Of a DNA stretch of 32,000 nt, positions 14,291-32,000 are shown one piece after another. The notes under the pieces were generated by a model, which saw only the letters and a list, made by a program, of their open reading frames with translations, made no database searches and was not told where the DNA came from. Position numbers and translations under genes: made by a program. Within the stretch, counting starts at the first letter, position 1, and every line of letters starts with the position of its first letter. The DNA is from Candidatus Saccharimonadota bacterium (GTDB lineage: Bacteria > Patescibacteriota > Saccharimonadia > Saccharimonadales > Saccharimonadaceae), in NCBI GenBank assembly GCA_016700015.1, contig CP064995.1:900001-932000 (forward strand), read 5' to 3'.

Positions 14291-14348
14291 GAACGTTCTG
14301 ACCTCGAGAATAACGCGCTCAGAAGGTGATTTTTATGCTATTATTGAA

Positions 14349-14456
14349 GGGTCTAGATTTAAACAACAAGCTGGTCCATTTGCGGACTGTTCGTGCTTAT
14401 AAACGGGCAGCCACAAATAATCAGCCGAGCGCGAGCTTTGTTGTTTAGGTCTAGAC
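14349..14456. repeat. Imperfect ~23-bp inverted repeat enclosing a 62-nt spacer
   Basis: GGTCTAGATTTAAACAACAAGCT (14349-14371) pairs with AGCTTTGTTGTTTAGGTCTAGAC (14434-14456). Pairing includes GTCTAGA/TCTAGAC and AAACAACAA/TTGTTGTTT. Confidence 0.55.
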
Positions 14457-14481
14457 AGCCAGTGGCTGTCCTTTTATTTAT
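14454..14481 (+). terminator. Hairpin plus T-rich tract just upstream of the first island ORF
   Basis: GACAGC-CAGTG-GCTGTC is followed by CTTTTATTTAT. Confidence 0.5.
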
Positions 14482-14503
14482 CGACAGCCATACGGAGAAA
14501 AGT

Positions 14504-17515: not shown

Positions 17516-17523
17516 TGCAAGGT

Positions 17524-17556
17524 ACAAGGTACCGCGTAACAGAGGTAAAGTCTAGT
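17524..17556. repeat. 33-bp repeat, copy 1: ACAAGGTACCGCG-N7-GGTAAAGTCTAGT
   Basis: The 13-nt arms are identical to those of the copy at 18845-18877, and only the 7-nt centre differs (TAACAGA vs AGGGGTG). It lies immediately upstream (minus strand) of the recombinase start. Confidence 0.75.
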
Positions 17557-17582
17557 ATAACGTGATACAATAGGAGGCATCT

Positions 17583-18506: not shown

Positions 18507-18819
18507 CTCGCTTAGGCGCCGCCGCTATTTGTTCGAGAATGTGCCTGAAGCTGTCAATGTTCTCGCCACCCACATGCCATTCGCGTATCCTGACAACATC
18601 TAACCCATCTTTCTCGCAGTATTTTCTGCCATCTTTGTAGTTATAAATTGTGGCAATACCAAACGGCGTTACAACCACCCATTCCGCATCAGTCTTGTGA
18701 TCGCTAGGGTTATGTATCGGCTTGCCGTATAGCGCAACCAATTGTTCGTATCCGGCCAGTAGGCTACCCTGATAGCTTGTGCCTTCTCGCTTCTTCAACA
18801 TATCTTTTATTGTGCTCAT
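18496..18819 (-). CDS. Hypothetical small protein (107 aa), mobile-element associated
   Basis: An SD-like AAAGGA lies upstream on the minus strand. The gene is preceded by repeat copy 2. I recognise no family. Confidence 0.5.
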   Translation of the reverse strand: MSTIKDMLKKREGTSYQGSLLAGYEQLVALYGKPIHNPSDHKTDAEWVVVTPFGIATIYNYKDGRKYCEKDGLDVVRIREWHVGGENIDSFRHILEQIAAAPKRVID

Positions 18820-18844
18820 TTCGTGTCCTTTCTCTTGTAACGTA

Positions 18845-18877
18845 ACAAGGTACCGCGAGGGGTGGGTAAAGTCTAGT
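18845..18877. repeat. 33-bp repeat, copy 2: ACAAGGTACCGCG-N7-GGTAAAGTCTAGT
   Basis: See copy 1. This copy overlaps the stop of the 203-aa HTH gene and precedes the 107-aa gene on the minus strand. Confidence 0.75.
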
Positions 18878-19484
18878 TACCTTGCGCCTCATCTCGATGT
18901 ACCCTTGTTCGATATTCTTGTTTTTGTTCGGCTATCTTTTCCTTAGCACCTGGAAACGCTCGATAAAATTCTTCTGTGTATACTCTGCCAAAAGCTTCAA
19001 TATCAATCGGCGCATCCGGATTATACATCCCAGCATCTATTTTCGCCGCCTCAAGCTCTTGGCGGATACGGAGCCTCTCAATCATCATGTCCAGTGCCTG
19101 GATGTCCGTACTGAAATACATTGAATCTACGCCGACAGGAAGATGTGTCATACGGCCTACGCCACGTCTGTCAAAGTATTCGCTCTCTACCCGGTTCGAT
19201 GCATACTTCTGACTGTTGTGTCGTAAATAAAATTCAATTGATCTTGGAACGCCATTGCGAGCATTCTCTATCAGTTTGGATTCCACATAGTCATTCATCG
19301 TATCTTGCCCGATTTCCTGCGCGTCGCGTACGGCATCACGAAAAGTCGTGTCGCTCTCCATCCACCGGTAAAGTGTGCTACGAGCAATGCCGATTGTTTT
19401 GCAGGCGCGCAGCATATTCGGATTTTCCTCAAGCAGCTTGAGGAGCTGTTTCTTAATTGCTTTCGATATCCTCATGGGCTGCAC
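18873..19484 (-). CDS. Phage-type HTH protein (phBC6A51 / small-terminase-like helix-turn-helix)
   Basis: NMLRACKTIGIARSTLYRWMESDTTFRDAVRDAQEIGQD...ESKLIENA...SIEFYLRH matches the phage HTH/terminase-small-subunit-like pattern. It overlaps the upstream methyltransferase gene end. Confidence 0.65.
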   Translation of the reverse strand: MQPMRISKAIKKQLLKLLEENPNMLRACKTIGIARSTLYRWMESDTTFRDAVRDAQEIGQDTMNDYVESKLIENARNGVPRSIEFYLRHNSQKYASNRVESEYFDRRGVGRMTHLPVGVDSMYFSTDIQALDMMIERLRIRQELEAAKIDAGMYNPDAPIDIEAFGRVYTEEFYRAFPGAKEKIAEQKQEYRTRVHRDEAQGN

Positions 19485-20847
19485 CTTGTGATATCAATTG
19501 TCGCTTCAAGCCGGTTTCGTTTTCCCAGCGCTTCATGATCACCTCTGCGTAGGTCGGCACCTTTTCCATGATGAAACACCTACGATTCAGTTTGGTCGAC
19601 GCAATGAGCGTACTACCGGAGCCACCGAACGGCTCAATCACAAGCGCATTGCGTTTCGTCAGTACCTTGATGTAGGGGATGAGTATGTCAATTGGCTTTG
19701 TGCCAAATATCACGCCCTGGCCTGAATGTTTTTCGTCGCTGGCGTTGAACTCAATGAAGTCAGTCGGCATATATCGTTGTCCCTTTTCATAACCCTCCCA
19801 CTGCGGCTTGCCTGATATGGCAAACAAGGCTGTTTCGTACAACTCTTGTAGTGGACCTTCCTCTTCATCGGTGTTGTATTTTACATCACCCGAACCACCA
19901 ACCATAGCGATATCGTGCTTACTAAAGAACTTGTACTTTGCACTAAATCCCTGATGTCGGTTTGGCAGGTGCCAGACAATCATATTCTTAACCTTCCAGT
20001 GCTTTTCCATCTCTTCCCATATGATGCGCAGATTCTTCCAGTTCTCGTAGCAGATGATGGAGAAGTCCACTTGTGAATGTCTGGCAACATTGTCCATCCA
20101 TAGCTCGGTGAAATTATCGGGTAGGCTTTCTGTTTCGAGGTATATCCTGTCTTGTTTTGACCCGAAGCCTTTGACTGGCTTGCCGCCGCGCTTTGCATGA
20201 AGATAATCAAGGATATAAGGAGGATCTGTCATGCACATGTCGGCCTTTTCGTCTCCCATGAGCTTTTGAAAATCCTCCACAACAGTTGAATCTCCGCACA
20301 TAAGCCGCGAATCACCCAGCTGATAAATATCACCCTTTTGAACAGATACTGTTTTTATATCAAGTTTTTTCAACTCTTTCTTTAGGTCAAAAGAGTTTTT
20401 CTCGTCCATATCTTCTATGTCAAAGATTTTGTCGATCTCTTCGGAATCAAATCCGATATCAGCAAGGAGGCTCTCGTCGAACTCTTTTAGCAGGTCATAA
20501 TCCCAGTTGCCGCCAGTACGATTGAGGCGCACACTTAAGTCACGCTCCTTCGCCTCATCGAGAGATATGTAGACAATTGGCACTTCGTTGAAGCCGAGGT
20601 TCTGCATGGCCTGTAGGCGCATATTGCCTCCAATGACAACGTTTTGTCTCTGACTGTAAGCATTGACGATGAGTGGATCCACAACGCCATACTTCTCAAT
20701 GCTTTCGCAGAGCTTCTGCATCTGCTCGTCGCTCCACTTACGAGGGTTATACTCGCTTGGCTTCAACTCGCTTATTTTGAGTTGCCGAATCTGCAACTTT
20801 CCACTAATAGTAGCCATGGGGGCACTATTCCTTTCTTTTGTGCCCAA
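19453..20847 (-). CDS. ParB-like nuclease domain fused to an N6/N4 DNA methyltransferase (beta-class, phage-type orphan MTase)
   Basis: The N-terminal ParBc-like region reads LKPSEYNPRKW...GVVDPLIVN...VIGGNMRLQA. The catalytic motif is DPPY (CMTDPPYILDY). The C-terminal AdoMet motif is EPFGGSGST. Confidence 0.9.
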   Translation of the reverse strand: MGTKERNSAPMATISGKLQIRQLKISELKPSEYNPRKWSDEQMQKLCESIEKYGVVDPLIVNAYSQRQNVVIGGNMRLQAMQNLGFNEVPIVYISLDEAKERDLSVRLNRTGGNWDYDLLKEFDESLLADIGFDSEEIDKIFDIEDMDEKNSFDLKKELKKLDIKTVSVQKGDIYQLGDSRLMCGDSTVVEDFQKLMGDEKADMCMTDPPYILDYLHAKRGGKPVKGFGSKQDRIYLETESLPDNFTELWMDNVARHSQVDFSIICYENWKNLRIIWEEMEKHWKVKNMIVWHLPNRHQGFSAKYKFFSKHDIAMVGGSGDVKYNTDEEEGPLQELYETALFAISGKPQWEGYEKGQRYMPTDFIEFNASDEKHSGQGVIFGTKPIDILIPYIKVLTKRNALVIEPFGGSGSTLIASTKLNRRCFIMEKVPTYAEVIMKRWENETGLKRQLISQGAAHEDIESN

Positions 20848-21121
20848 ACAAAAGGCACAACGTTAGATTGATAAAAGTAAATGAATAACGAAAAATCCAC
20901 ACTGTGGTTAGTTAGGATTTTCGCCTCCTTTTTATGCAATCTTGGTTGTGCCTAAGATTTTCAATAATTCATTTAAGGTTCACTTACGATAGGTAAGCAA
21001 TACCAGTATAGCAGGCAGTATTTGACAATGCAACATATTTATTTGGTAAAAAGTAGTATAAAGGGGACAATAACGGTAGATAGTGGTTGCTGCTGTGCGT
21101 GAGTTATCTCAAGAACTAAGG

Positions 21122-21127
21122 TATAAT
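21122..21127 (+). promoter_or_regulatory. Candidate -10 box (TATAAT) for the hsdR operon
   Basis: A perfect TATAAT lies 14 nt upstream of the hsdR ATG in an AT-rich 293-nt intergenic region. A TTGACA (21022-21027) lies further upstream. No clear SD precedes hsdR. Confidence 0.3.
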
Positions 21128-21140
21128 ATACGTAGTTACT

Positions 21141-23546
21141 ATGAACAAAAGCACGCTGACTGAAGCAGAGATACGCACACGCTACATTACACCCGCCATT
21201 CTGGCCGCCGGCTGGCCATTAGACGCTGTCCGAGAAGAGTTTGTTTACTTCACGAAAGGACGCATTGAGGTTCGCGGCAAATTATCCGTAAGGAAAGATG
21301 CAAAACGCGTTGACTATCTACTCATGCGCAACGATGGCACAAACACACCCCTGGCAGTTGTAGAGGCTAAAGACAATAAACACGGCGTTGGTGACGGCAT
21401 GCAGCAAGCAGTCGAATACGCTGAGTCACTTGACGTACCTTTTGTGTTTACATGTAATGGAGATTCCTTTTTGATGCGCGATCGGACGGGGCTGTTGACG
21501 TCTGCAGAAAAGGAGATTGCCCTAAATAACTTTCCATCACCGGCGCACCTAGATAGTCTGTATAAACAGTGGAGGGGAATAGAGAGGGCCGATGTCCAAG
21601 TCCTGAGCTCACCGTATTACGAAGATGGCAGTGGAAAACAGCCGCGCTATTATCAAAGGGTTGCCATTAATCGTACAATTGAGGCGATCGCAAAGGATCA
21701 AAAACGGATACTCCTCGTTATGGCCACAGGGACTGGCAAGACCTACACGGCAGCACAGATTATTTGGAGATACTGGAAGGCACCATCTCAAAGTAGCAAG
21801 CAGAAACGAATTCTATTTCTTGCCGACCGCAACATTCTCGTAGATCAGACTAAGACAAACGATTTTAAACACTTTGGATCGGCCATGACAAAAATTACTG
21901 GTCGTAACATCGAGAAGGAGTATGAGATTTACCTAAGTCTCTATCAGGCCATTTCTGGTAGTGACGAGGCGAGGAACGCATATAAGGAATTTTCCCCAGA
22001 TTTTTTTGATCTCATCGTTGTAGATGAATGTCACAGAGGCAGTTCGAAAGAGGACAGCAGCTGGCAAGAAATCTTACGCTATTTCAACAGTGCTACACAG
22101 GTGGGGCTTACTGCTACGCCAATTGAAACCAAAGAAGCCAGCAACACACATTACTTTGGCGAACCGATATACACGTATTCACTGAAGAACGGCATCGACG
22201 ACGGATTTCTCGCGCCATACAAGGTTATTCGTGTTGCAACCGACGTTGATACATTTGGGTATCGTCCTGAAGAAGGCGAAGTCGACGATGAAGGTAACGA
22301 AATTGAGGATAGGGAATATTCCACGAAGGACTTTGATCGCAGGATTATCCTGCCTCAACGCGACCAAGAGGTGGCTAGGTATTTAACTAAATTTCTAGAA
22401 AAAACAGATCCATATGCGAAAACTATCGTATTTGCCCGTACGATCAATCATGCGGAACGCCTACGCAGAGCACTCGTTAACATCAATGCTGAAAAAGTAC
22501 GTGAAAGCAGCAGATACATTATGCGCATTACGGGAGACGATGAGCTTGGTAAGGCACAGCTTGATAATTTTATTGATCCTGAGTCACGTTATCCTGTCAT
22601 TGCCATCACGAGCAAGCTCATGACGACGGGCGTCGACGCACAAACATGTAAGGTTATTGTTCTTGATAGCAATATCGAAAGCATGACAGAGTTCAAGCAA
22701 ATCATTGGGCGTGGTACTCGCGTCCGCGAAGATTATGGAAAAACCTACTTCACCATTTTAGACTTTCGTAATGTCACTAAGCTTTTTGCTGACCCGGACT
22801 TTGACGGTGACCCCGTAAAAGTATACGAACCTAAAAATGAGGAAGAGTTCAATGACACGATTGACGCTATAGATGAGTCAGTCGATGAAGCTACATCAGG
22901 CAGCGATGATGCCGCCATAGATAGCTTTGTAGATGGGGCTATTTACTACCCAGATCCCAAGGATGGTAGAAGTGACCGACCAGTTGTCCATACTATAAGC
23001 AGTCAGAAGGTTACTATTATCGGTGACAGTGTACGTATTATGGACACAGACGGGAAGCTTATAACAGAGAGCCTAACTGACTATACGCGTAAAAACATTC
23101 TCGGCGAATATGCAACTCTTGATGAGTTTTTACAGAAATGGTCATCGGCAAAGCAGAAATACTTTATTCTAGACGAGATGGCCGAAAAAGATATTCCAAT
23201 CTATGAGCTAGCAGACGCTTACGGCAAAGATGCTGACATGTTTGACGTTGTCACGAGTATTGCGTATGGACAAAAGCCGCTAGGGCGTAAGACTCGAGCC
23301 GAGAAGGTTCGTCACAGCAGGTTTATTAATCAGTACCAAGGTAAAGCTCGTGAAGTGCTGGAAGCACTTGTAGATAAGTACGAATCGACGAACTTAAAAG
23401 CAATTGAGGAGCGGGAAATCCTCAAGGTGCAGCCGCTTGACTCTTTCGGAACACCAATCGAGATTGCTAACTTGTTTGGAGGCATTGATGGTTATGAAGA
23501 GGCGGTCGGTAGACTCGCAGGTGAATTATATGAGGTAGCAATCTAA
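21141..23546 (+). CDS. hsdR: Type I restriction enzyme R subunit (EcoAI/EcoEI-like, type IB-style architecture)
   Basis: The N-terminal PD-(D/E)xK reads VDYLL...AVVEAKD. Helicase motif I is MATGTGKT and motif II is VDECHRGS. Later helicase motifs are TSKLMTTGVDA and QIIGRGTR. A C-terminal EcoEI_R_C-like tail is present. Confidence 0.93.
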   Translation: MNKSTLTEAEIRTRYITPAILAAGWPLDAVREEFVYFTKGRIEVRGKLSVRKDAKRVDYLLMRNDGTNTPLAVVEAKDNKHGVGDGMQQAVEYAESLDVPFVFTCNGDSFLMRDRTGLLTSAEKEIALNNFPSPAHLDSLYKQWRGIERADVQVLSSPYYEDGSGKQPRYYQRVAINRTIEAIAKDQKRILLVMATGTGKTYTAAQIIWRYWKAPSQSSKQKRILFLADRNILVDQTKTNDFKHFGSAMTKITGRNIEKEYEIYLSLYQAISGSDEARNAYKEFSPDFFDLIVVDECHRGSSKEDSSWQEILRYFNSATQVGLTATPIETKEASNTHYFGEPIYTYSLKNGIDDGFLAPYKVIRVATDVDTFGYRPEEGEVDDEGNEIEDREYSTKDFDRRIILPQRDQEVARYLTKFLEKTDPYAKTIVFARTINHAERLRRALVNINAEKVRESSRYIMRITGDDELGKAQLDNFIDPESRYPVIAITSKLMTTGVDAQTCKVIVLDSNIESMTEFKQIIGRGTRVREDYGKTYFTILDFRNVTKLFADPDFDGDPVKVYEPKNEEEFNDTIDAIDESVDEATSGSDDAAIDSFVDGAIYYPDPKDGRSDRPVVHTISSQKVTIIGDSVRIMDTDGKLITESLTDYTRKNILGEYATLDEFLQKWSSAKQKYFILDEMAEKDIPIYELADAYGKDADMFDVVTSIAYGQKPLGRKTRAEKVRHSRFINQYQGKAREVLEALVDKYESTNLKAIEEREILKVQPLDSFGTPIEIANLFGGIDGYEEAVGRLAGELYEVAI

Positions 23547-24991
23547 TGTTAGGCGCAGGATTCATTAAAAGTATTCAAAACGAAATGCGTAAAGATAATG
23601 GTGTCGACGGTGATGCCCAGCGCTTGAGTCAGCTTGTGTGGCTTATTTTCTTAAAGATTATGGATGATAATGAGCAGCAAAAAGAGCTACTCGACAAAAA
23701 ATATGTAGCCGCAGTTCCAGAGAGATATCGGTGGAAAAATTGGGCTGCTTCTCCCGATGGTCTTACTGGCGATCGTTTGCTTGAATTCATCAACAGAGAG
23801 CTGTTTTCAGATCTGAAAAATATTGAGATTAAACAGGACAATCGCCGAACCGCTGTTGTGCGTGAAGTATTCGCTGAGTCTACAAACTTTATGAAAGACG
23901 GTACGCAGCTTCGCAAGGTCATTAATATTATCAATGGCATAAACTTCAACTCTTCCGATGATCGACACTCATTTGGGGATATCTACGAGACGCTGCTTGC
24001 AAGCCTTCAGTCCGCAGGTAACGCAGGAGAATTCTACACCCCAAGGGCGGTTACAAAATTTATTATTGATCGTATCAACCCAAAGCTTGGCGAAAAGGTG
24101 CTCGACCCAGCTGCTGGTACTGGGGGGTTCCTGACGGGTGCAATTGACCATATTCGCAAAGAGGTTGAAACTCCAGAAGATGATGAGCTTTTACAGAAAT
24201 CTATCTACGGGGTGGAGTGGAAACAGCTACCGTACTCGCTCCTGATTACTAATATGATCTTTCACGGTATTGAAGAACCTGACAACATTCGTCATGACGA
24301 CACTTTGTCTAGACCATACATTTCATATGGTCCAGAAGATTATGTTGATTGTATTGCGGCTAACCCTCCATTTGGTGGCGTAGTAAAAGACGGTACTGAG
24401 CATAACTTTCCTTCAAGTTTTCGCACCAAGGAAACTGCAGACCTATTCCTGATTTTGTTCATTCGCTTGCTGAAGCAAGGTGGTCGTGCAGGTATTGTTT
24501 TGCCAGATGGTTTTTTATTTGGTGAAGGTGCTAAAACTCGTATTAAGCAGCATCTACTCGAGGAGTGCAACCTCCACACAATTATTCGTTTGCCCGGTAG
24601 TGTGTTTGCTCCATATACATCTATAGCAACTAACTTATTATTCTTTACAAAGGGCGAGCCAACGAAAGAGATTTGGTATTATGAGCATCGGCTACCTGAA
24701 GGAGTAAAGGCGTACAACAAAACCAAGCCTATTCGTCTCGAAGAATTTGACCCTATCAAGGAATGGTGGGACAACCGCACTGACAGCGACGTCGCCTGGA
24801 AGGTTAGTGTCGATGAGATTAAAAAGCGTGATTACAATCTCGATATTAAGAATCCAAATGTTGTCGAAGTCGATGAGCTGAACCCAGAAGAGGTGCTCGA
24901 GAGCTATCGGGCGAAGCAAGCAGAAGTTAAAAATATCCTGGAACAGATTAAGGTAGAGTTAACTGAGGCGCTGTCGCATCATGACAAGTAG
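23546..24991 (+). CDS. hsdM: Type I restriction-modification N6-adenine DNA methyltransferase M subunit
   Basis: Motif I is VLDPAAGTGGFL and motif IV is IAANPPFGG. The start overlaps the hsdR stop (TAATG). Confidence 0.93.
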   Translation: MLGAGFIKSIQNEMRKDNGVDGDAQRLSQLVWLIFLKIMDDNEQQKELLDKKYVAAVPERYRWKNWAASPDGLTGDRLLEFINRELFSDLKNIEIKQDNRRTAVVREVFAESTNFMKDGTQLRKVINIINGINFNSSDDRHSFGDIYETLLASLQSAGNAGEFYTPRAVTKFIIDRINPKLGEKVLDPAAGTGGFLTGAIDHIRKEVETPEDDELLQKSIYGVEWKQLPYSLLITNMIFHGIEEPDNIRHDDTLSRPYISYGPEDYVDCIAANPPFGGVVKDGTEHNFPSSFRTKETADLFLILFIRLLKQGGRAGIVLPDGFLFGEGAKTRIKQHLLEECNLHTIIRLPGSVFAPYTSIATNLLFFTKGEPTKEIWYYEHRLPEGVKAYNKTKPIRLEEFDPIKEWWDNRTDSDVAWKVSVDEIKKRDYNLDIKNPNVVEVDELNPEEVLESYRAKQAEVKNILEQIKVELTEALSHHDK

Positions 24992-27170
24992 TGTTAAGGA
25001 TTTGAGGGTACTCGTCGATAATCTCGATGAGTATATTCGCATACCTGGTGGCGTAGATCGTCTTAAGAAGATGATACTGCATCTCGCCGTATCGGGTCAG
25101 CTTGTACCCCAGGATGCAGGCGAAGGTACTGGCGAGCAGCTATATGAACAGATTCGCGAAGTCTATAAGCCGAAAAAATCACTGCCAGAAGTTGACGTCG
25201 CTCCATTTACTATACCGATGAGCTGGCGATGGACTAGGCTAGGTGATCTGTTTGATATAACATCTAGTAGGCGTGTTATGCAGGCTGATTGGAAGAGTTC
25301 TGGAATCCCGTTTTTACGGGCTCGTGATTTAGCTAATGCCGTAAAGACTGGCCGTATTGAGGCAGAAGTATTTGTTAGTGAAGAGTATTATGGCGAGGTA
25401 GCTAAGAGTAGTGGCGTACCTGTTCCTGGAGATATAATGGTTAGTGGCGTTGGTACTATCGGTATACCATATATAGTCAAGATTAGTGATAGGTTCTACT
25501 TCAAAGACGCGACTATACTTTGGTTTCGAAATCCAGCAAAAGTCCTTGCTGATTTTGTTGAAATTGTTTTTCATGCTGAGTTCATGAAGAATGTCATCAT
25601 TAGTCAATCACAAGGCACGACAGTAAGTACTTACACAATTGCTGATGCGCGGCTTAATATGATGCCGTTGCCCCCACTCGCTGAGCAGGAGCGGATCATA
25701 GAGAAGAGAGATGTCCTCTTTGCTTTGATAGACGATTTGTCAAAAAAATATGCCGAAGAAGAGGCGCGACGCAAAAAACTAATAGGTAGCTTGTTGGGGG
25801 CATTTTCGGATAAAAATAACAGCAAAGCACTGGAACTATTATCAGAGCTGGTCCGATCTAAGGAGGATATATGGTGGCTGAGAAACTTCATTCTACATCA
25901 GGCTGTTTCTGGTAGGCTTACACAATCAGATCCAAGCTCTGAAGGTGTGCAAGTGCTATATGAAAGAGCACTTTTGGAACGTGCCAAGGTGCAATCGGGT
26001 AGCCACAAGCCACTACCGATCATCGAGAAACATGAAGGTGACTACGAGTTGCCAGATACCTGGCGTTGGGCTCGTCTTGGTGAGGTTACCAACTATGGGA
26101 AAACAGAAAAACGTAAGCCGGTAGATATTTCGGAGGAAACCTGGCTATTGGAACTTGAAGATATAGAGAAGAATTCTTCAAAGTTAATTTCAAAAGTCAC
26201 GGCAAACGAAAGAAACCCTTCAAGCGACAAAAATATATTTCGTAAGGGCGATGTATTATATGGAAAACTGCGTCCGTATTTGGACAAGGTTATTGTGGCG
26301 GATACTGATGGCGTGTGTTCAAGTGAAATACTTCCAATTAGGGCCTATGGTGATTCTATCCACCCCGAATATCTACTACTCGTAATGAAGTCTCCAAACT
26401 TTGTAGCGACAGTTAACGAGATGACGTACGGTGTAAAGATGCCGAGACTGGGCACTGAAGACGGTCGAAAGATGCTGATTCCACTTGCACCTTACGCAGA
26501 GCAGCTAGAGATAGTTGAGAGAACAAAACGACTACTTAGCCTGGTTGCTATGCTTGAGTCTGTATTTGACTCTCCTTGTATACCTATAGAAAGAGTATTA
26601 GTGAAAGACAATAGGTGGTGGTTTGCCCTTAAACAGGGCATTGGATCTGTGTTAGACAAACTTTCTAAAACACAGTACGAGCGTGGCGAGATGGTCATTG
26701 CAAAGTACATGTATCTCCTACAAGAAGTTTATAAAGTACCTTTCGGACTTCAGTTTGTTAAGCATCAGTTTGGACCATATGATCCTGATATCAAGAAGGC
26801 TATTTTAGGTAGTTCGTTCAATAAAGATAAGTTCTTCACGGTTAAAGGGTCGGGTGTGAAGCAGGTCTATAGTTTGGGCATGAAAAGCGATACACTTATG
26901 AAATACTCCTCAGATATCCTCACATCTGCACAGTCGTCACTAGATGAGTTGATGCAATATACTGCGAATGCGAAAAGCCGCGACATTGAGCGACTTGCAA
27001 CGGTCTGTAAAATCATTCAAGATAGCCAGTCAAATGATGAGCGGGTTGTGATAAATGAGATGAAAGCCTGGAAGAATGATAAATTCCCACCAGAAGAGGT
27101 AAGAAAGACTTTAGCCTTTGTTCATCAAAAAGGGTGGGATTCCAAGTTAATAAGAGGATCTTCGGTTTAA
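24981..27170 (+). CDS. hsdS: Type I RM specificity subunit with two target-recognition domains plus an unusual ~195-aa C-terminal extension (Panacea/DUF4065-like)
   Basis: TRD-flanking conserved repeats are present: PMSWRWTRLGDLF / PDTWRWARLGEVT, PLPPLAEQERII / PLAPYAEQLEIV, and LHLAVSGQL / LHQAVSGRL. At 729 aa the protein is far longer than typical HsdS. The tail contains AKYMYLLQEVYKVPFGLQFVKHQFGPYDPDI. Confidence 0.88.
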   Translation: MTSSVKDLRVLVDNLDEYIRIPGGVDRLKKMILHLAVSGQLVPQDAGEGTGEQLYEQIREVYKPKKSLPEVDVAPFTIPMSWRWTRLGDLFDITSSRRVMQADWKSSGIPFLRARDLANAVKTGRIEAEVFVSEEYYGEVAKSSGVPVPGDIMVSGVGTIGIPYIVKISDRFYFKDATILWFRNPAKVLADFVEIVFHAEFMKNVIISQSQGTTVSTYTIADARLNMMPLPPLAEQERIIEKRDVLFALIDDLSKKYAEEEARRKKLIGSLLGAFSDKNNSKALELLSELVRSKEDIWWLRNFILHQAVSGRLTQSDPSSEGVQVLYERALLERAKVQSGSHKPLPIIEKHEGDYELPDTWRWARLGEVTNYGKTEKRKPVDISEETWLLELEDIEKNSSKLISKVTANERNPSSDKNIFRKGDVLYGKLRPYLDKVIVADTDGVCSSEILPIRAYGDSIHPEYLLLVMKSPNFVATVNEMTYGVKMPRLGTEDGRKMLIPLAPYAEQLEIVERTKRLLSLVAMLESVFDSPCIPIERVLVKDNRWWFALKQGIGSVLDKLSKTQYERGEMVIAKYMYLLQEVYKVPFGLQFVKHQFGPYDPDIKKAILGSSFNKDKFFTVKGSGVKQVYSLGMKSDTLMKYSSDILTSAQSSLDELMQYTANAKSRDIERLATVCKIIQDSQSNDERVVINEMKAWKNDKFPPEEVRKTLAFVHQKGWDSKLIRGSSV

Positions 27171-27172
27171 CA

Positions 27173-27694
27173 ATGGCACACGTAGCCCTTATTGACATGA
27201 CGGCCGTCGAAGCACGAAAAGTCCTGTTGAAAAATGATAGCTATATTAACTTTGATTTACCAAATTATTTTAACTTTAGTCCTTTGTTGAACGCGATATC
27301 TACTAAGATGACTGGTAGTGTTTGGCAGGAGTTTCAAGGTATCGTCATTGACGATGACGGAAAGCCAAAGACAGCAAAAGATGGTAGTGAGATTCGAAAG
27401 AATCCGGGCTATCAATTTGGCGTTAATCATAGAATTGTTGTTAACAAAAACTCCAATCTATCATGGAGACCGCTTGAACTGACACATCCTGTCCTTTACG
27501 TTGCTTTGGCGCATTTATTTACCGACGAAGAAAACTGGAAGCTACTCACAGAGCGGTTCAAAAGTTTCAAGAGAGATACGATTGAAGTTGCCAGTATCCC
27601 CCCGGTAAATCATTTGATAAGAAATCAAATAAGGCAGAACAGATCAGGAAGTGGTGGGAGAAGAGCGAACAGCGTAGCGTCGAACTTGGACTAG
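27173..27694 (+). CDS. Abi/UG-type reverse transcriptase, N-terminal fragment (frame 1 of a split gene)
   Basis: ATG 27173 lies 2 nt after the hsdS stop. The N-terminus reads LLKNDSYINFDLPNYFNF. An RT motif 1/2-like segment is NLSWRPLELTHPVLYVAL. The frame ends at 27694, downstream of a C6 tract (27598-27603). Confidence 0.7.
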   Translation: MAHVALIDMTAVEARKVLLKNDSYINFDLPNYFNFSPLLNAISTKMTGSVWQEFQGIVIDDDGKPKTAKDGSEIRKNPGYQFGVNHRIVVNKNSNLSWRPLELTHPVLYVALAHLFTDEENWKLLTERFKSFKRDTIEVASIPPVNHLIRNQIRQNRSGSGGRRANSVASNLD

Positions 27695-27741
27695 AGTATA
27701 GCTATATTAGCGAGACAGACATATCGGACTGCTATAGCTCA

Positions 27742-28749
27742 ATGTATACGCATTCGGTTGCCTGGGCTATACATGGCCGCGATGAAGCCTTTGAGCAACA
27801 GCGCAATAAAGAACTGCTTGGAAATAAAATCGATGACATTTTGATGGCTATGCACCATCGGCAAACCAATGGTATTCCGCAGGGAAGTGCGATGTACGAC
27901 TTTATTGCCGAGCTAGTACTGGGCTATGTTGATACATTGCTAGTTGACGCAATAAGCAAGGAAAGCATTGAAGAGTATCGGATCATTCGATTTAGGGATG
28001 ATTATAAGATTTTCACCAAAAATCCAACAGACGGAAAGAAGATCCTTCGAGTTATTAGCGATACGCTTATAGACTTCGGTCTTAGGCTAAATGCGACGAA
28101 GACTGTCTTTGGCCGAAGTCTCATTGATGCATCGTTCAAGGCAGATAAGCTTGACGGGCTTTTCGTTCCCAAGATCGAAAACAACTACGCGAAACACCTG
28201 ATGCAAATCCATCAATTTTCTGAGAAATATCCAAATTCTGGTCAAGTTTCTAGGATGCTCAACATTCTCCACGATGATATGTATGCACGGTTAGGGGGTG
28301 GGTTAAAGAAGGACCTGAAGGATTACGAGAAGCCAAAAGTTATGATCAGCATTCTTGTTGATATGTGTGCTAAAAATCCAAGATTCTACAATATCATCGC
28401 CGCCATGATTAGTCTTCTTCTTTCGCAGCTGTCTGATGAAGACAAGGTTGCGACGGCACGTATTGTTCATGATCGGCTTCGAGCATTGCCAAACACGGGG
28501 CTACTGGATCTATGGTTGCAACGAGCTGTGTACAAATACGACCAAACTTTGTCATTTGGTGAACCGCTAGCACAAGTCCCAATACTGCATGACGGAAAGC
28601 CTGTTGGGATATGGAACAACGAGTGGCTCAACCAAGAGGCGATAGATCTAATAATGTCAGCAACGGTTGTAGATGTAGACCTCTACGCGAATAACTCTGC
28701 AGTTACGACCCGTGGTGAAGTCGATGAATTTAGGGATATACCGAGTTAA
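27742..28749 (+). CDS. Abi/UG-type reverse transcriptase, catalytic and C-terminal helical fragment (frame 2; the frame is open from 27586)
   Basis: RT motif A is TDISDCYSSMYTH (27715-27753, partly upstream of the first ATG). Motif B is GIPQGSAMYDFIAELVL (27871-). Motif C is RFRDDYKIF (27988-). Motif D/E-like is GLRLNATKT. A C-terminal alpha-helical repeat-like region follows. Confidence 0.8.
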   Translation: MYTHSVAWAIHGRDEAFEQQRNKELLGNKIDDILMAMHHRQTNGIPQGSAMYDFIAELVLGYVDTLLVDAISKESIEEYRIIRFRDDYKIFTKNPTDGKKILRVISDTLIDFGLRLNATKTVFGRSLIDASFKADKLDGLFVPKIENNYAKHLMQIHQFSEKYPNSGQVSRMLNILHDDMYARLGGGLKKDLKDYEKPKVMISILVDMCAKNPRFYNIIAAMISLLLSQLSDEDKVATARIVHDRLRALPNTGLLDLWLQRAVYKYDQTLSFGEPLAQVPILHDGKPVGIWNNEWLNQEAIDLIMSATVVDVDLYANNSAVTTRGEVDEFRDIPS

Positions 28750-28751
28750 CT

Positions 28752-30101
28752 ATGATTTCAAAATCCGACTACATGCTCTTCCTCAAACATCCAGCCTGGC
28801 TCTGGGTGAAGAAGCACGATCCTGGCAGGATTCCACCTGTAGATGATGCAACGCAGGCGATGTTTGATGCCGGTCATGCATTTGAGCCGTACGTTGAGTC
28901 TCTTTTTCCCGAAGGTGTGACGCTTGGTTTCGGTGACTACGATGAATATCTATCATTACCGGTCCGCACTCGGCAGGCGCTCGAATCGGGGGCGCGGATT
29001 TTGTTTCAGCCTCGATTTGAATGGAAAGACTTTACTTGTATATCAGATATCGTGTCGGTTGTAGAGGGCAACACTGTTGACCTATACGAAATTAAATCGA
29101 GTACAAAAGTAAAACCCGAGCATCTGTATGATCTGGCATTTCAGAAGGTAGTGCTAGAAGGCAATGGGTTATCAGTTCGCAATACATCGGTAATACATGT
29201 CAATAATCAGTATGTACGGCGTGGTGAAGTTAATCCACGCGAGCTTACGGCTTTTGAAGACGTGACCGGTAAAGTAAATGAAATTGCCGCCAAGACACCC
29301 GGCTATATGCAAGTGGCGGCACAGGTGGTGCAGTCGACGACAATGCCCGACCCGAATCCAAATCTCACGAAGCTAGGAGCAAAGGCAGAGTGGCTGCAAA
29401 TTTACGAAAATATCTTCCCGCCTGAGCCGAAAGTATGGCCAGAAGATACCGCACCGACGATTGATAAACAGGCTATCGCTGGTTTCTTGAACGACTTAAC
29501 ATACCCACTATACTTCCTCGATTACGAAACAATGTCTGGAATTATTCCGCATTTTGATGGCCAGCGCCCGTACCAACAGGTTCCCATGCAGTATTCATTG
29601 CATATTTTGCAAACACCAGATGGCGAACTCGAGCATCGCGAATTTCTACACCGCGATAATTCTGATCCAGCACGTCCGCTTGTCGAGCAACTAGTGGGCG
29701 ACGTCGGTACGGAGGGTTCAGTTATTGTATGGTTCGAAGGCTTTGAAAAATCGCGTAACGCCGAACTGGGTGAGATGTTTCCGGAGTATAGAGTGGCTAT
29801 GGCAGCACTCAACGATCGAGTGGTCGATTTGATTATTCCGTTTAAAAAGAAATGGTACGACGATCCTCGGTTTGAGGGGAGTGCGAGTATCAAAAAAGTG
29901 CTGCCCGTACTGTGTCCTGAGCTGTCATACAAAACCTTGGGCATTCAGGAAGGTGGTTCCGCTCAGCGATTGTGGATGGAGGCGGTACTAGATGGCACCC
30001 GCGAAGCAGAGAAGGAAAAGATACTCGCTGATTTACTGGAGTATTGCGGGTTGGATACGTTGGCGATGGTCGAGATATATCGGAGATTACGTGAACAATG
30101 A
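28752..30101 (+). CDS. DUF2779-like protein: N-terminal PD-(D/E)xK (Cas4/RecB-like) nuclease fold plus C-terminal RNase-H-fold DEDD-type exonuclease-like domain
   Basis: The N-terminus has ISDIV...VDLYEIKSSTK (D...ExK). The C-terminus has YPLYFLDYETM...RPYQQVPMQYSLHI...YCGLDTLAMVEIY, the pattern I associate with DUF2779. The start lies 2 nt after the RT stop. Confidence 0.75.
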   Translation: MISKSDYMLFLKHPAWLWVKKHDPGRIPPVDDATQAMFDAGHAFEPYVESLFPEGVTLGFGDYDEYLSLPVRTRQALESGARILFQPRFEWKDFTCISDIVSVVEGNTVDLYEIKSSTKVKPEHLYDLAFQKVVLEGNGLSVRNTSVIHVNNQYVRRGEVNPRELTAFEDVTGKVNEIAAKTPGYMQVAAQVVQSTTMPDPNPNLTKLGAKAEWLQIYENIFPPEPKVWPEDTAPTIDKQAIAGFLNDLTYPLYFLDYETMSGIIPHFDGQRPYQQVPMQYSLHILQTPDGELEHREFLHRDNSDPARPLVEQLVGDVGTEGSVIVWFEGFEKSRNAELGEMFPEYRVAMAALNDRVVDLIIPFKKKWYDDPRFEGSASIKKVLPVLCPELSYKTLGIQEGGSAQRLWMEAVLDGTREAEKEKILADLLEYCGLDTLAMVEIYRRLREQ

Positions 30102-30706
30102 GAGTAGCATGCCCTAGCTGTGGTTCGACAAACACGTGTCGCATTCAGTATGGCATGCCTGATTTCACCGAGAAGCTTGAGCGAGATGTTGAAGCCGGAA
30201 AAGTTCACTTAGGCGGGTGTGTCGTATTAGGAGGTGACCCGAATCGTTACTGTAACAACTGCGAAATAGACTTCGATACCAATGCTACAAGTATTTATCT
30301 CGACATCGACGGCGTGCTACTCGCAAATGAAAAAACCGCCGCTAATTATGCCAATGAATTCATTCAGACTGTTTTAGATCGGTATCCGTATACGACTTAC
30401 TGGCTCACCACCCACTGCTGGAGGGGCGAGAATAACGCTAAGGAAGTTCTGAGCCCTTATCTGAGACCAGACATACTCCCACTACTCGATAAGATAAAGC
30501 CGACCGAGTGGGGAGAAGAAAAGACTGACGCTATAGACTTCAGTAAGCCGTTTAAATGGTTTGATGACGACCTGTACGAAAAGGAGCTAGCGGTGCTTGC
30601 GGAAAATAATGCACTTGAGAGCTGGGTAGAGATTGATTTATCTAAGGATCCTGACCAGCTCGCGCAGAGTATCTGTGACCTACAGAACGAGGCGTGGGCA
30701 AAATGA
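30098..30706 (+). CDS. Zinc-ribbon plus HAD-superfamily phosphatase-like protein
   Basis: It shares an ATGA start/stop overlap with the upstream gene. The Zn ribbon is CPSCGS...CNNCE. HAD motif I is YLDIDGVLL, motif II-like is WLTTH and the acidic motif IV-like is WFDDD. Confidence 0.65.
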   Translation: MRVACPSCGSTNTCRIQYGMPDFTEKLERDVEAGKVHLGGCVVLGGDPNRYCNNCEIDFDTNATSIYLDIDGVLLANEKTAANYANEFIQTVLDRYPYTTYWLTTHCWRGENNAKEVLSPYLRPDILPLLDKIKPTEWGEEKTDAIDFSKPFKWFDDDLYEKELAVLAENNALESWVEIDLSKDPDQLAQSICDLQNEAWAK

Positions 30707-31194
30707 AGAAACGAATCACGGATGACTACCTTGCGATTATCGACGGAGAGCCAAGTTTGCGCCAAGACCTATGGTTTTATATTCAGGTAGGTAAGATCGT
30801 AGGTCAGGTCAACTCGATCGAGATGTACATAAATGGCGTCATCGCGAGTTACTACAGTAGGCAGGATATTGATTCCCAAGAAAGGTTGAAGAGGGATATC
30901 GTCCAACCTATGACGCTTGACACTAAAATAGGTCTCGTGAAAAAGATAGCTATAAATCTCAGGCTTGGATTCTCGCGTCAGAATAAAAGTGATTTGTACA
31001 GATGGAAGGACATCAGGAACGTTGTAGCCCATGGAGTTCCTTTGCATGTATCTAGGCCGGACGACCCGATCGAACTCGTGTTGGTGTATAACAATGACTT
31101 CTATGACGTAGGTGTGCTCACTGAGGAGTTCTACGAAAGGCAGAATAGATTAACGAGCTACCTGACCTCCATCCAGGAGTCTATAGAAGATTAA
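30703..31194 (+). CDS. Small HEPN-like (Rx4H; DUF4145-like) protein
   Basis: The ORF is open from 30694. ATG 30703 forms an ATGA overlap with the upstream stop. The Rx4H motif is WKDIRNVVAHG (31015-31032) in a predicted all-helical ~160-aa protein. Confidence 0.55.
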   Translation: MKKRITDDYLAIIDGEPSLRQDLWFYIQVGKIVGQVNSIEMYINGVIASYYSRQDIDSQERLKRDIVQPMTLDTKIGLVKKIAINLRLGFSRQNKSDLYRWKDIRNVVAHGVPLHVSRPDDPIELVLVYNNDFYDVGVLTEEFYERQNRLTSYLTSIQESIED

Positions 31195-31324
31195 TCTTAG
31201 ATAGGCGAAAAGTTCACTTATCGTTTCTGGGGTGGCAAAATGGATCAATGTATGAAATGCCGTGCTCCTTCGTGAATATGTCAGCGATATATCACTATAT
31301 GTTATTGCGCGGAGGTTGAGCACG

Positions 31325-31353
31325 TTGTAATTGATAGCTTACGACTCTATAAT
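31325..31353 (+). promoter_or_regulatory. Sigma70-like promoter giving an apparently leaderless transcript
   Basis: TTGTAA (31325-31330), a 17-nt spacer and TATAAT (31348-31353) are present. The ATG at 31360 lies 7 nt after the -10 box, and there is no SD. Confidence 0.55.
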
Positions 31354-31359
31354 GAGCTT

Positions 31360-31809
31360 ATGAGCAAGGGAAGCCCAGAGGATAAACGAAAACACCTGGA
31401 GATGATCCAGGCTGTTATATCGCGTATGGGCTCGAATTCATTTCTATTTAAGGGGTGGTCAATAACCATTATCGCCGCAGTTTCTGCGTTCGCAGGCAAG
31501 GAGAGCGACCACACTTTGATGCTCATTCCTGTCGTTTCAACACTTTTATTTTGGGCTATTGATGCTTATTATCTTATGAATGAAAGGGCATTTCGTAAGT
31601 TATACGAGAAAGTAGCGGCGACCGACCCAAGTGACATAGACTTCGCCATGACTCCCGCAAAAGAATATATCGGTTTCAAAAACTGGCTGAAGACGCTAAA
31701 GACCACGATTCTTAGTCTATTTTACGGTGTCGTGCTCATGTTATTGATATTCTTAATCTTCGCAATAAATAACATAAGCTTGGAGGTGTTGATACACTAT
31801 GGTGCGTAA
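31360..31809 (+). CDS. Small 3-TM membrane protein (149 aa), partner of the downstream TIR gene
   Basis: The hydrophobic segments are WSITIIAAVSAFA, LMLIPVVSTLLFWAIDAYY and ILSLFYGVVLMLLIFLIFAI. The 3' end overlaps the next ORF by 11 nt. Confidence 0.6.
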   Translation: MSKGSPEDKRKHLEMIQAVISRMGSNSFLFKGWSITIIAAVSAFAGKESDHTLMLIPVVSTLLFWAIDAYYLMNERAFRKLYEKVAATDPSDIDFAMTPAKEYIGFKNWLKTLKTTILSLFYGVVLMLLIFLIFAINNISLEVLIHYGA

Positions 31810-32000
31810 GGTATTTTTTAGTTTTCACTACAAACCAGATAATTGGCGTGCAGCACAGGTACGCAGTATCGGCGTAGTCGAAGGTAATAACCCTGTTTCT
31901 GATAACGACTGGGAGGACATCGCAGATGGTGGTGACGATGCAATTGAAAAATGGATAAACGACCAGATGTCTGGAAAAAGCTGCGCAGTAGTCTTGGTTG
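31799..32000 (+). CDS. ThsB-like TIR domain protein (DUF1863/TIR-like), 3' end outside the window
   Basis: This ORF is not in the ORF track because it is truncated. GGAGGTG (31783-31789) lies 9 nt before ATG 31799. The translation MVRKVFFSFHYKPDNWRAAQVRSIG...DWEDIADGGDDAIEKWINDQMSGKSCAVVLV parallels the N-terminus of Thoeris ThsB (..RVFFSFHY....R.N.VRN...) as I recall it. Confidence 0.7.
   Translation, partial: MVRKVFFSFHYKPDNWRAAQVRSIGVVEGNNPVSDNDWEDIADGGDDAIEKWINDQMSGKSCAVVLV

What the first reader, a model, noticed from the sequence alone, without database searches (positions are those of the whole stretch)
26575..27170. HsdS carries a ~195-aa C-terminal extension resembling a Panacea (DUF4065/SocA-like) antitoxin domain
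The two-TRD HsdS architecture ends near the second conserved helix (PLAPYAEQLEIVERTKRLLSLVAMLES, about nt 26570), yet the ORF continues for ~195 more codons. The extension contains AKYMYLLQEVYKVPFGLQFVKHQFGPYDPDIKKAI. This resembles the DUF4065/Panacea core as I recall it (..KLqKLLYlaq.....G.pl....F.aw.yGPv.p.vY). Panacea domains are known as promiscuous antitoxin domains paired with diverse adjacent toxins. A fusion to an RM specificity subunit would physically link RM complex integrity to neutralisation of a neighbouring toxin, with the RT or the HEPN protein as candidates.
Basis: inference. Interest (0 to 1): 0.72.

Follow-up and report, generated by a model that had tools for sequence, protein, structure and literature searches.

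The report
Restriction specificity subunit with DarG-like tail
The DNA-recognition subunit of this type I restriction system carries a flexibly tethered extra domain related to the toxin-grabbing part of the DarG antitoxin; the same fusion occurs in over a hundred other lineages, so it is a real but undescribed accessory module whose binding partner is still unknown.

Summary
The hsdS ORF (24981-27170, 729 aa) runs 198 codons past the end of the two-TRD core.

- **What the tail is:** after a roughly 12-residue linker, aa 544-726 form an independently folding domain (AF2 pLDDT 95).
- **Closest relative:** the C-terminal DarT-sequestering domain of the DarG antitoxin. Support: NCBIfam E=4e-10; PADLOC E=3e-13; family profile vs PDB 7YK3_B E=3e-8; Foldseek TM 0.73, the only significant PDB hit.
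- **Panacea claim:** the PF13274 match is sub-threshold (14 bits against a cut-off of 25.7). Panacea is at most a distant superfamily relative.
- **Not an assembly error, not unique:** about 108 of the best 150 cluster representatives (50% identity) are HsdS proteins with this domain at the C-terminus. Sources name them only "subunit S".
- **Context:** in about 17 loci the only conserved neighbours are hsdM and hsdR. Downstream genes vary or are absent, and no DarT is present. The RT here is frameshifted. The proposed RT/HEPN toxin pairing is therefore unsupported.
- **Other properties:** the fused clade is basic (pI about 9.3), unlike the acidic Mtb DarG domain. It also moves between RM families as a module.

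Best reading: a partner-sequestering or docking module carried on the RM methyltransferase core, partner unidentified. This is a new variant of known kinds, of moderate interest.

The parts
21141..23546 (+). hsdR (801 aa): type I restriction/translocase subunit with an EcoEI_R_C C-terminal domain
   Evidence: Pfam ResIII 1e-45, EcoEI_R_C 1e-25, HSDR_N
23546..24991 (+). hsdM (481 aa): type I N6-adenine methyltransferase. It overlaps hsdS by 11 nt.
   Evidence: Pfam N6_Mtase 5e-76, HsdM_N
24981..26573 (+). hsdS core, aa 1-531: two target-recognition domains (about aa 80-255 and 357-527) plus conserved helices. The last helix is aa 505-530.
   Evidence: Pfam Methylase_S 2e-11; PADLOC Specificity_I 1e-80; secondary structure of the full-length model
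26574..26609 (+). Linker, aa 532-543, predicted to be flexible
   Evidence: pLDDT <50 for aa 533-540 between two confident regions; whole-protein pTM 0.55
26610..27158 (+). DarG-C-terminal-domain-like module, aa 544-726. It has two beta-hairpins among N-terminal helices, followed by a helical bundle. It is basic (net +8, pI 9.4).
   Evidence: NCBIfam DarG positions 175-322/338, E=4e-10; PADLOC DarG 171-326/329, E=3e-13; A4 profile vs 7yk3_B E=2.8e-8; AF2 pLDDT 95.1; Foldseek 7yk3_B E=2.6e-6, TM 0.73; charge
27159..27170 (+). Disordered 3-residue tail and the TAA stop codon of hsdS
   Evidence: pLDDT <50 for aa 727-729; sequence
27173..28749 (+). AbiP2-type reverse transcriptase gene, starting 3 nt after the hsdS stop. 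A 1-nt frameshift in a C6 run (27598-27603) interrupts it. This is neighbouring cargo, not shown to be a partner of the domain.
   Evidence: PADLOC AbiP2: ORF 27134-27694 matches model 5-128 (9e-37); ORF 27742-28749 matches model 171-484 (9e-101). The bridging peptide is readable in the third frame.

Best explanation
**Shown**
- The ORF is an intact type I RM specificity subunit.
- After a flexible linker of about 12 residues, its C-terminus carries an autonomous domain of about 180 aa.
- That domain is homologous to the C-terminal domain of the DarG antitoxin. In DarTG, that domain alone binds and sequesters the DarT toxin.
- The fusion recurs in more than 100 divergent HsdS lineages, always inside hsdR/M/S operons.
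- PADLOC HsdS and HsdM profiles carry matching C-terminal regions.
- The domain has been swapped between unrelated type I families as a module.

**Inferred**
- The domain works as a protein-capturing (sequestration or docking) module riding on the M2S methyltransferase core. It would hold a partner protein on the RM complex, so that the partner's activity depends on the state of that complex.
- The nearest analogies are DarG holding DarT, and EcoprrI masking PrrC.
- It does not copy DarG's ssDNA mimicry, because the HsdS-fused clade is strongly basic.
- The partner is not a conserved neighbouring gene. It is not specifically the RT or the HEPN-like ORF of this window, and it remains unidentified.

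**Confidence split:** identity and generality of the fusion about 0.9; the sequestration mechanism about 0.35-0.45.
For: **Homology to the DarG C-terminal domain**
- NCBIfam antitoxin_DarG positions 175-322/338, E=4e-10.
- PADLOC DarG 171-326/329, E=2.9e-13.
- 31-sequence family profile vs PDB 7yk3_B (DarG fragment in the Mtb DarTG complex), E=2.8e-8.
- AF2 model pLDDT 95, pTM 0.91.
- Its only significant PDB neighbours are 7yk3_B/D: E=2.6e-6, prob 1.00, TM 0.73.

**Function of that domain in DarG**
- It suffices to bind DarT and to rescue cells from it (PMC7003065).

**Tethered independent module**
- The linker at aa 533-540 has pLDDT <50, while the domain scores 83-97.

**Generality**
- 421 representatives at E<=1e-3.
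- Of the best 150, 65 match the window's HsdS core.
- 43 of the 45 others tested carry Methylase_S.
- Four positions are invariant across 38 full-length fusions: K575, G598, E670, W697.

**Link to type I RM in other architectures**
- In L020/L021 the domain is encoded just after hsdS, separated from it by a frameshift.
- PADLOC MTase_I PDLC03039 and Specificity_I PDLC03088/03196 have C-terminal regions matching relatives of the domain, E down to 1e-33.
- DarTG itself is often inserted in type I RM operons (PMC5179494).

**Modularity**
- Window vs L010: extension 65% identical, but HsdM 29% and HsdR 35%.
- Window vs L007/L008: extension 43%, but HsdM 60% and HsdR 65%.

**Standalone relatives**
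- They sit in two-gene cassettes, consistent with a partner-binding role.
Against: - No partner is identified. Across about 17 loci, only hsdM and hsdR are conserved neighbours.
- No DarT (DUF4433) is present in the window. None was found among the neighbours of related loci that were scanned or carried precomputed Pfam marks.
- The basic charge (median pI 9.3, net +7.5) fits nucleic-acid binding equally well.
- It differs from the acidic Mtb DarG fragment (net -3, pI 5.6), so the binding mode need not be conserved.
- All functional statements rest on homology at about 15% identity to the one solved relative.
- No interaction prediction or experiment could be run.
Confidence: 0.45

Rival explanations
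1. First reader's model. The tail is a Panacea-type antitoxin that neutralises a toxin encoded next door (the RT or the HEPN-like ORF). Loss of the RM complex would then release that toxin.
For: - The domain belongs to an antitoxin-type superfamily.
- PF13274 gives recurrent sub-threshold hits.
- The RT gene starts 3 nt after the hsdS stop.
- In 8 of about 17 loci some variable defence gene follows co-directionally: Cas4-like, PD-(D/E)XK, Mrr_cat, T5orf172, PemIK.
- Panacea antitoxins are known to swap toxins freely (PMC8832971).
Against: - No RT or HEPN gene accompanies the fusion in any other locus.
- The closest relative of the extension (L010/L011, 65% identity) is followed by T5orf172 and a KAP NTPase instead.
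- hsdR follows directly in L006, L012/L024, L013, L014 and L026. The next gene is convergent in L005, L007 and L020.
- The RT here is frameshifted.
- PADLOC files AbiP2 as a DRT-class defence RT. From my own knowledge, which was not checked here, such RTs act as single-gene systems.
- PF13274 is not reached (14 vs 25.7 bits).
Confidence: 0.12
2. The domain regulates the restriction enzyme itself. It could gate HsdR assembly or activity. Alternatively, like the Panacea protein SocA, it could act as a protease adaptor that delivers HsdR for degradation (restriction alleviation).
For: - HsdM and HsdR are the only universally conserved neighbours.
- hsdR directly follows the fusion in 5 loci.
- The domain is fused to either HsdS or HsdM, both parts of the core that recruits HsdR.
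- SocA works in proteolytic degradation of its toxin SocB (stated in PMC8832971).
Against: - Identity of the extension is decoupled from HsdM and HsdR identity.
- The fusion occurs with two different HsdR C-terminal architectures, EcoEI_R_C and T1RH-like_C. This argues against a co-evolving interface.
- Most type I systems do without the domain.
- The relation to SocA is much weaker than the relation to DarG.
Confidence: 0.15
3. The domain is a nucleic-acid-binding accessory. It would give the complex extra contacts with flanking DNA, or autoregulate the operon.
For: - The charge is consistently basic in the HsdS-fused clade: +5 to +17 in 18 of the 21 fused-clade sequences of A4/A5 (the other three are -5, +1 and +1), median pI 9.3.
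- The N-terminal half combines helices with two beta-hairpins.
- It is tethered beside a DNA-recognition subunit.
Against: - The only solved relative binds a protein, not DNA (PMC7003065).
- No DNA-binding family matches it.
- Foldseek hits to winged-helix regulators are non-significant (E>1).
Confidence: 0.15
4. The domain is a decoy or sensor aimed at invaders. It might capture acidic phage anti-restriction proteins, or incoming DarT-like toxins (an orphan, anti-addiction antitoxin).
For: - A basic surface could bind acidic DNA-mimic proteins.
- There is no cognate toxin in cis.
- It exchanges between systems in a rapid, modular way typical of conflict interfaces.
- Phages and hosts are known to trade orphan DarG-like antitoxins (PMC11825919 and PMC11481870, titles and abstracts).
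Against: - This is purely inferential. No phage partner is known.
- No homologue was found in viral contigs or plasmids.
Confidence: 0.1
5. The tail is a relic or an artefact: a lost stop codon, or the fossil of a deletion that fused hsdS to the 3' end of a darG gene, with no present function.
For: - DarTG is often embedded in type I RM operons, which offers a route to such a fusion (PMC5179494).
- In L020/L021 the domain is frameshifted away from hsdS.
Against: - More than 100 divergent lineages keep the fusion in frame, with invariant residues.
- The fold is very confident.
- Independent assemblies agree.
Confidence: 0.03

Closest known systems
C-terminal domain of DarG (DarTG toxin-antitoxin; PDB 7YK3 chains B/D)
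   Same: - Same fold: TM 0.73, and the only significant PDB hit.
- Significant sequence-profile homology over about 150 residues.
- The same conserved core motifs are visible in the alignment: K-L-x-Y, GPY, ELLAT, W..K.
   Different: - No macrodomain. The N-terminal partner is HsdS rather than an ADP-ribosyl glycohydrolase.
- No DarT nearby.
- About 15% identity to 7YK3_B.
- Basic (pI about 9.3) rather than acidic (pI 5.6 for the aligned Mtb fragment), so ssDNA mimicry is unlikely.
Panacea / DUF4065 antitoxin domain (PF13274; PanA, SocA)
   Same: - Recurrent sub-threshold alignments covering model positions 20-105 of 113.
- A weak structural match to a phage Panacea protein.
- The literature places DUF4065 and the DarG C-terminal domain in one homologous group (PMC13621843).
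- The general logic of a partner-neutralising module.
   Different: - It fails the Pfam gathering score.
- It is about 180 aa, against a Panacea core of about 113.
- It is not in a conserved two-gene toxin-antitoxin pair.
- It is fused to an RM subunit, an architecture not mentioned in the Panacea survey text (no hits for 'HsdS', 'fused' or 'fusion').
PrrC-EcoprrI type arrangement: a latent toxin held in check by a type I RM complex (named from my own knowledge, not checked in the library)
   Same: It offers a functional analogy. An effector's activity is tied to a type I RM enzyme, and defence genes are embedded in hsd operons.
   Different: - No PrrC or RloC homologue is present.
- Here the RM subunit itself carries a dedicated antitoxin-type domain.
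- No masked effector has been identified.
DarTG cassettes inserted in type I RM operons (Jankevicius et al. 2016, PMC5179494)
   Same: The same two players, a DarG-type domain and type I hsd genes, lie in one operon. This is a possible evolutionary source of the fusion.
   Different: There, darT and a complete darG are separate genes. Here only the C-terminal domain survives, covalently joined to HsdS, with no DarT.
Conventional two-TRD HsdS (about 400-470 aa)
   Same: Two TRDs, conserved helices and an operon with hsdM and hsdR.
   Different: It has an extra 198 residues. Sources name it only 'restriction endonuclease subunit S'.

Membership tests
Panacea / DUF4065 (PF13274) antitoxins | Match to PF13274 at or above the Pfam gathering score (25.7 bits) | tested here: not met
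   Window extension: 13.9-14.1 bits, E=0.09-0.11. Among relatives, 5 of 31 reach E<0.1 (best 0.005) and 2 of 45 full-length proteins reach a best of 2e-4.
Panacea / DUF4065 (PF13274) antitoxins | Conserved bicistronic pairing with an adjacent toxin gene | tested here: not met
   Across about 17 loci only hsdM and hsdR are conserved. hsdR follows directly in 5 loci, the next gene is convergent in 3, and the rest carry variable cargo.
Panacea / DUF4065 (PF13274) antitoxins | Panacea fold | tested here: inconclusive
Panacea / DUF4065 (PF13274) antitoxins | Direct binding and neutralisation of a cognate toxin | not testable with these tools
   This needs co-expression rescue and pull-down experiments.
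DarG antitoxin (DarTG) | C-terminal DarT-binding domain | tested here: met
   NCBIfam E=4e-10; PADLOC E=3e-13; profile vs 7yk3_B E=2.8e-8; Foldseek TM 0.73.
DarG antitoxin (DarTG) | N-terminal macrodomain (ADP-ribosyl glycohydrolase) | tested here: not met
   No Macro family hit. Residues 1-531 are HsdS. The NCBIfam DarG equivalog score is 39 bits against a cut-off of 250.
DarG antitoxin (DarTG) | Adjacent darT (DUF4433) gene | tested here: not met
   No DUF4433 hit among 26 of the window's larger ORFs that were scanned, among the neighbours scanned in related loci, or among precomputed Pfam marks. The rest of the 1.01-Mb genome could not be searched.
Type I RM specificity subunit (HsdS) | Two target-recognition domains (Methylase_S) separated by conserved helices | tested here: met
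   Pfam Methylase_S with 2 stretches; PADLOC Specificity_I 1e-80; helices 233-276 and 505-530.
Type I RM specificity subunit (HsdS) | Encoded with hsdM and hsdR in one operon | tested here: met
   hsdR 21141-23546, hsdM 23546-24991, hsdS 24981-27170, all on the + strand and abutting or overlapping.
RM-guarded abortive-infection toxin (PrrC/EcoprrI-like) | A latent toxin physically masked by the RM complex | not testable with these tools
   No PrrC or RloC homologue was seen. Testing for a masked partner would need interaction data.

The most novel reading that the evidence does not exclude
The DarG-like tail turns the type I RM core into a guard platform. It would keep an effector or regulator sequestered on the M2S complex, whether that partner is encoded variably downstream or elsewhere. 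The partner would be released, or HsdR handed to a protease, when the complex is disabled by phage anti-restriction factors or meets unmodified self DNA. That would be a built-in second line of defence or self-protection switch shared by more than 100 HsdS (and some HsdM) lineages.
Probability: 0.2. Interest if true: 0.8.

Novelty: new variant of a known kind. Interest (0 to 1): 0.55.

Why it matters
Type I RM enzymes are usually treated as three-subunit machines, with specificity subunits made of nothing but TRDs and coiled coils.

A widespread C-terminal module homologous to a toxin-sequestering antitoxin domain is therefore of note. It is so far unannotated, and it is fused to HsdS and apparently also to HsdM.

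It would give a physical handle on how RM systems are wired to other defence or toxin functions. DarTG cassettes and other abortive-infection genes are known to nest in hsd operons, and this fusion bears on that question.

There is also a practical side. Annotators calling these proteins simply 'subunit S' miss a domain that may change the enzyme's behaviour.

If the partner turns out to be an effector or HsdR itself, the finding makes coupling between restriction and abortive infection, or restriction alleviation, directly testable.

Tried and rejected
**Explanations rejected**
- Assembly error or lost stop codon. Independent assemblies agree, and more than 100 lineages keep the fusion in frame.
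- Panacea membership. PF13274 is never reached, and the BFVD Panacea hit is weak.
- A full DarG or DarTG system. There is no macrodomain and no DarT.
- A conserved third gene. All-against-all BLAST of neighbours in 11 loci found only HsdM, HsdR and a frequent large serine recombinase. Pfam and PADLOC scans of downstream genes showed unrelated cargo.
- DNA mimicry as in Mtb DarG. The fused clade is basic.
- Co-evolution with HsdM or HsdR. The identities are discordant.

**Searches that led nowhere**
- Single-sequence phmmer against the PDB found only chance hits.
- Plasmid tblastn with two family members found no match.
- The viral contig scan found none.
- Alignment A4 was too diverse for locus scanning.
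- The genome and metagenome scans returned only 3 and 7 loci.
- The third word-indexed protein search returned only 8 short proteins.
- The structural paper on the DarG C-terminal domain (Deep et al. 2023) is not held, so DarT-contact residues could not be compared.
- dN/dS was not attempted, because the closest pairs with DNA are at most 67% identical.
- Six literature searches found no description of an HsdS fusion to DarG or Panacea.
Full report
**1. The observation**

The + strand carries three abutting genes: hsdR (21141-23546), hsdM (23546-24991) and a 729-aa ORF (24981-27170).
- The ORF has two Methylase_S / Specificity_I target-recognition domains, at about aa 80-255 and 357-527.
- Its last core helix spans aa 505-530.
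198 codons follow before the stop.

The extension is therefore real and at the stated place.

**2. What the extension is**

The extension alone gives significant sequence matches to DarG, and only to its C-terminal part, not the macrodomain:
- NCBIfam antitoxin_DarG, E=4.3e-10, model positions 175-322 of 338.
- PADLOC DarG, E=2.9e-13, positions 171-326 of 329.

Pfam's Panacea model PF13274 scores 13.9-14.1 bits (E about 0.1), against a gathering score of 25.7.

A 31-sequence family profile (A4) hits one solved structure: 7YK3 chain B, the DarG fragment in the M. tuberculosis DarTG complex, at E=2.8e-8 over about 150 residues.

The AlphaFold2 model of the domain is very confident (pLDDT 95.1, pTM 0.91).
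- Its only significant Foldseek neighbours in the PDB are 7yk3_B/D: E=2.6e-6, probability 1.00, TM 0.73.
- In the viral structure library nothing passes E<=1e-3.
- A phage protein annotated as Panacea appears only at E=0.34, TM 0.39/0.53.

A 2026 paper states that DUF4065 proteins are homologous to the DarG C-terminal helical domain (PMC13621843).

In DarG, this domain alone binds DarT and rescues cells from it (PMC7003065).

**3. Anatomy in the full-length protein**

The full-length model shows:
- the core helix ending at aa 530;
- residues 533-540 at pLDDT <50;
- the domain at aa 544-723 at pLDDT 83-97.

The overall pTM of 0.55 is low, as expected for two bodies joined by a flexible tether.

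**4. Not an artefact, and not unique**

The identical protein is QQS21844.1, 'restriction endonuclease subunit S', from a 1.01-Mb Candidatus Saccharibacteria contig. A separate Logan assembly carries the same domain.

An exhaustive profile search of 1.84 billion cluster representatives found 421 proteins at E<=1e-3 and 127 at E<=1e-10. Most of the best 150 are 550-650 aa with the domain at the extreme C-terminus.
- Of those 150, 65 match the window's HsdS core directly.
- 43 of the 45 others tested carry Methylase_S.
- That makes about 108 distinct HsdS fusions at the 50% clustering level.
- Across 38 full-length fusions, K575, G598, E670 and W697 are invariant.
- Names given by sources never mention the domain.

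PADLOC's own profiles for some long HsdS (PDLC03088, PDLC03196) and one HsdM (PDLC03039) contain a matching C-terminal region, with E down to 1e-33 against standalone relatives.
- The fusion is therefore silently present in existing resources.
- It also appears to occur on HsdM. This rests on profile positions only and was not inspected directly.

**5. Genomic context**

I assembled about 17 independent loci. Wherever flanks are visible, the fusion lies in an hsd operon.

All-against-all comparison of neighbours in 11 loci finds only HsdM, HsdR and a frequent large serine recombinase.

| What follows the fusion | Loci |
|---|---|
| hsdR directly | L006, L012/L024, L013, L014, L026 |
| Convergent gene | L005, L007, L020 |
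| AbiP2 RT, then Cas4/DUF2779 | this window |
| Cas4 + RNase H-like | L016 |
| HARE-HTH/PD-(D/E)XK, then DUF5677 | L008 |
| T5orf172, then KAP NTPase | L010/L011 |
| Mrr_cat | L022 |
| Unknown 339-aa protein | L023 |
| PemIK | L025 |
| Two unknown ORFs | L009 |

(Sources.)

- No DarT (DUF4433) is seen anywhere.
- In L020/L021 the domain is separated from a normal-length hsdS by a frameshift. Its first helix is still encoded upstream of the called start.
- The RT in this window is itself interrupted by a 1-nt frameshift in a C6 run.
- The specific proposal that the RT or the HEPN-like ORF is the cognate toxin therefore has no comparative support.

**6. Two further properties that bear on mechanism**

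*Modularity.* Identity of the extension is decoupled from the rest of the system.

| Comparison | Extension | HsdM | HsdR |
|---|---|---|---|
| Window vs L010 | 65% | 29% | 35% |
| Window vs L007/L008 | 43% | 60% | 65% |

The fusion also occurs with HsdR proteins of two different C-terminal architectures. The domain has been exchanged between type I families, which argues against a tightly co-evolving interface with HsdM or HsdR.

*Charge.* The HsdS-fused clade is basic, with median pI 9.3 and net charge +7.5.
- 18 of the 21 fused-clade sequences in A4/A5 lie between +5 and +17. The other three are -5, +1 and +1.
- The aligned Mtb DarG fragment is -3 (pI 5.6).
- Distant standalone relatives range from -5 to +6, half of them within ±2 of neutral.

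The published 'ssDNA mimicry' of the DarG C-terminal domain (title of Deep et al. 2023, cited) is thus unlikely to carry over. Binding of an acidic protein or of nucleic acid is possible.

**7. Most likely mechanism**

The following are shown:
- a tethered, autonomous, conserved domain;
- homology to a toxin-sequestering domain;
- strict association with the type I methyltransferase core.

The following is inferred. The domain captures a partner protein and holds it on the RM complex, so that the partner's activity is coupled to the complex.
- This is analogous to DarG-DarT, and functionally to RM-masked abortive-infection toxins.
- I give this mechanism about 0.35-0.45, and the identity of the fusion about 0.9.

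The rivals, with their confidences:

| Rival | Confidence |
|---|---|
| Antitoxin of the adjacent RT/HEPN | 0.12 |
| Regulator of HsdR, including a SocA-like protease-adaptor role | 0.15 |
| Nucleic-acid-binding accessory | 0.15 |
| Decoy, or orphan antitoxin against invaders | 0.10 |
| Relic | 0.03 |

**8. Comparison with the known, and novelty**

- The protein is a member of HsdS.
- It contains a DarG-C-terminal-domain homologue, but it is not a DarG: it has no macrodomain and no DarT, and it scores 39 bits against a 250-bit cut-off.
- It is not a demonstrable PF13274 member.
- DarTG cassettes nested in type I RM operons were noted in 2016 (PMC5179494) and offer a plausible origin.
- Six full-text searches found no description of this fusion.

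I rate it a new variant of known kinds, with interest 0.55. It is real, widespread and unannotated, and it suggests testable RM-toxin or RM-regulation coupling, but its function is still open.

Noticed in passing
window 27173-28749 (C6 run at 27598-27603): The AbiP2-type reverse transcriptase gene right after hsdS is split into two ORFs by a single-base frameshift in a run of six C. The missing segment (model positions about 129-170) reads through in the third frame. This could be a sequencing error, a pseudogene or a phase-variable tract.
   Followed up: partly
window 28752-30101: A Cas4-like PD-(D/E)XK plus DUF2779 protein (449 aa) starts 3 nt after the RT stop. Cas4-like or PD-(D/E)XK nucleases also follow the fusion or its hsdR in L016, L012/L024, L008 and L022. 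They are not mutually similar by BLAST.
   Followed up: partly
window 30694-31194: A 166-aa ORF carries an RNVVAH (Rx4H, HEPN-like) motif.
   Followed up: no
window 31360-31809: A 149-aa membrane protein matches the PADLOC candidate defence family PDC-M50A (E=8e-43), with weak Pfam 8xMP similarity.
   Followed up: no
window about 14000-32000: GC drops from about 0.50 to about 0.44 near 14 kb. A large serine recombinase (16247-17527, - strand), a ParB-N/DNA methylase fusion (19453-20847, - strand) and a small-terminase-like HTH protein (18873-19484, - strand) precede the hsd operon. The right half of the window looks like an integrated defence island. Serine recombinases also lie near the fusion in 5 other loci.
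   Followed up: partly
L017 7355-8729; L018 7343-8729; L019 7343-8723: In Bacteroidota, 240-242-aa standalone relatives of the domain form an overlapping two-gene cassette with a protein of about 220 aa. That protein has weak sigma-70 region-2 similarity (E=0.02-0.06). The cassette is transcribed divergently from CBASS or Pycsar operons. It may be a sigma/anti-sigma-like regulator pair for those defence systems.
   Followed up: partly
L020 6712-8522 and L021 6712-8522: The DarG-like domain is encoded just after a 390-aa hsdS but in another frame. Its first helix lies upstream of the called ATG. The two assemblies agree, which suggests a genuine frameshifted (or frameshift-expressed) version of the fusion.
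   Followed up: partly
PADLOC models PDLC03039 (MTase_I, positions about 504-699 of 708), PDLC03088 and PDLC03196 (Specificity_I): Relatives of the domain match the C-terminal ends of these profiles (E down to 1e-33). Fusions to HsdM as well as HsdS therefore seem to exist and are buried in existing defence-system models.
   Followed up: no
L013 9374-10489: An HsdS with only one TRD (371 aa) still carries the C-terminal domain. The fusion is therefore not restricted to two-TRD subunits.
   Followed up: no
protein P0001 (ENA, 578-bp contig): This 92%-identical fragment begins and ends with peptides that I recognise, from my own knowledge, as translations of Nextera adaptor sequence (MCIRDR, VSYTHLDVYKRQ). 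It looks like an adaptor-contaminated contig in the public collection.
   Followed up: no
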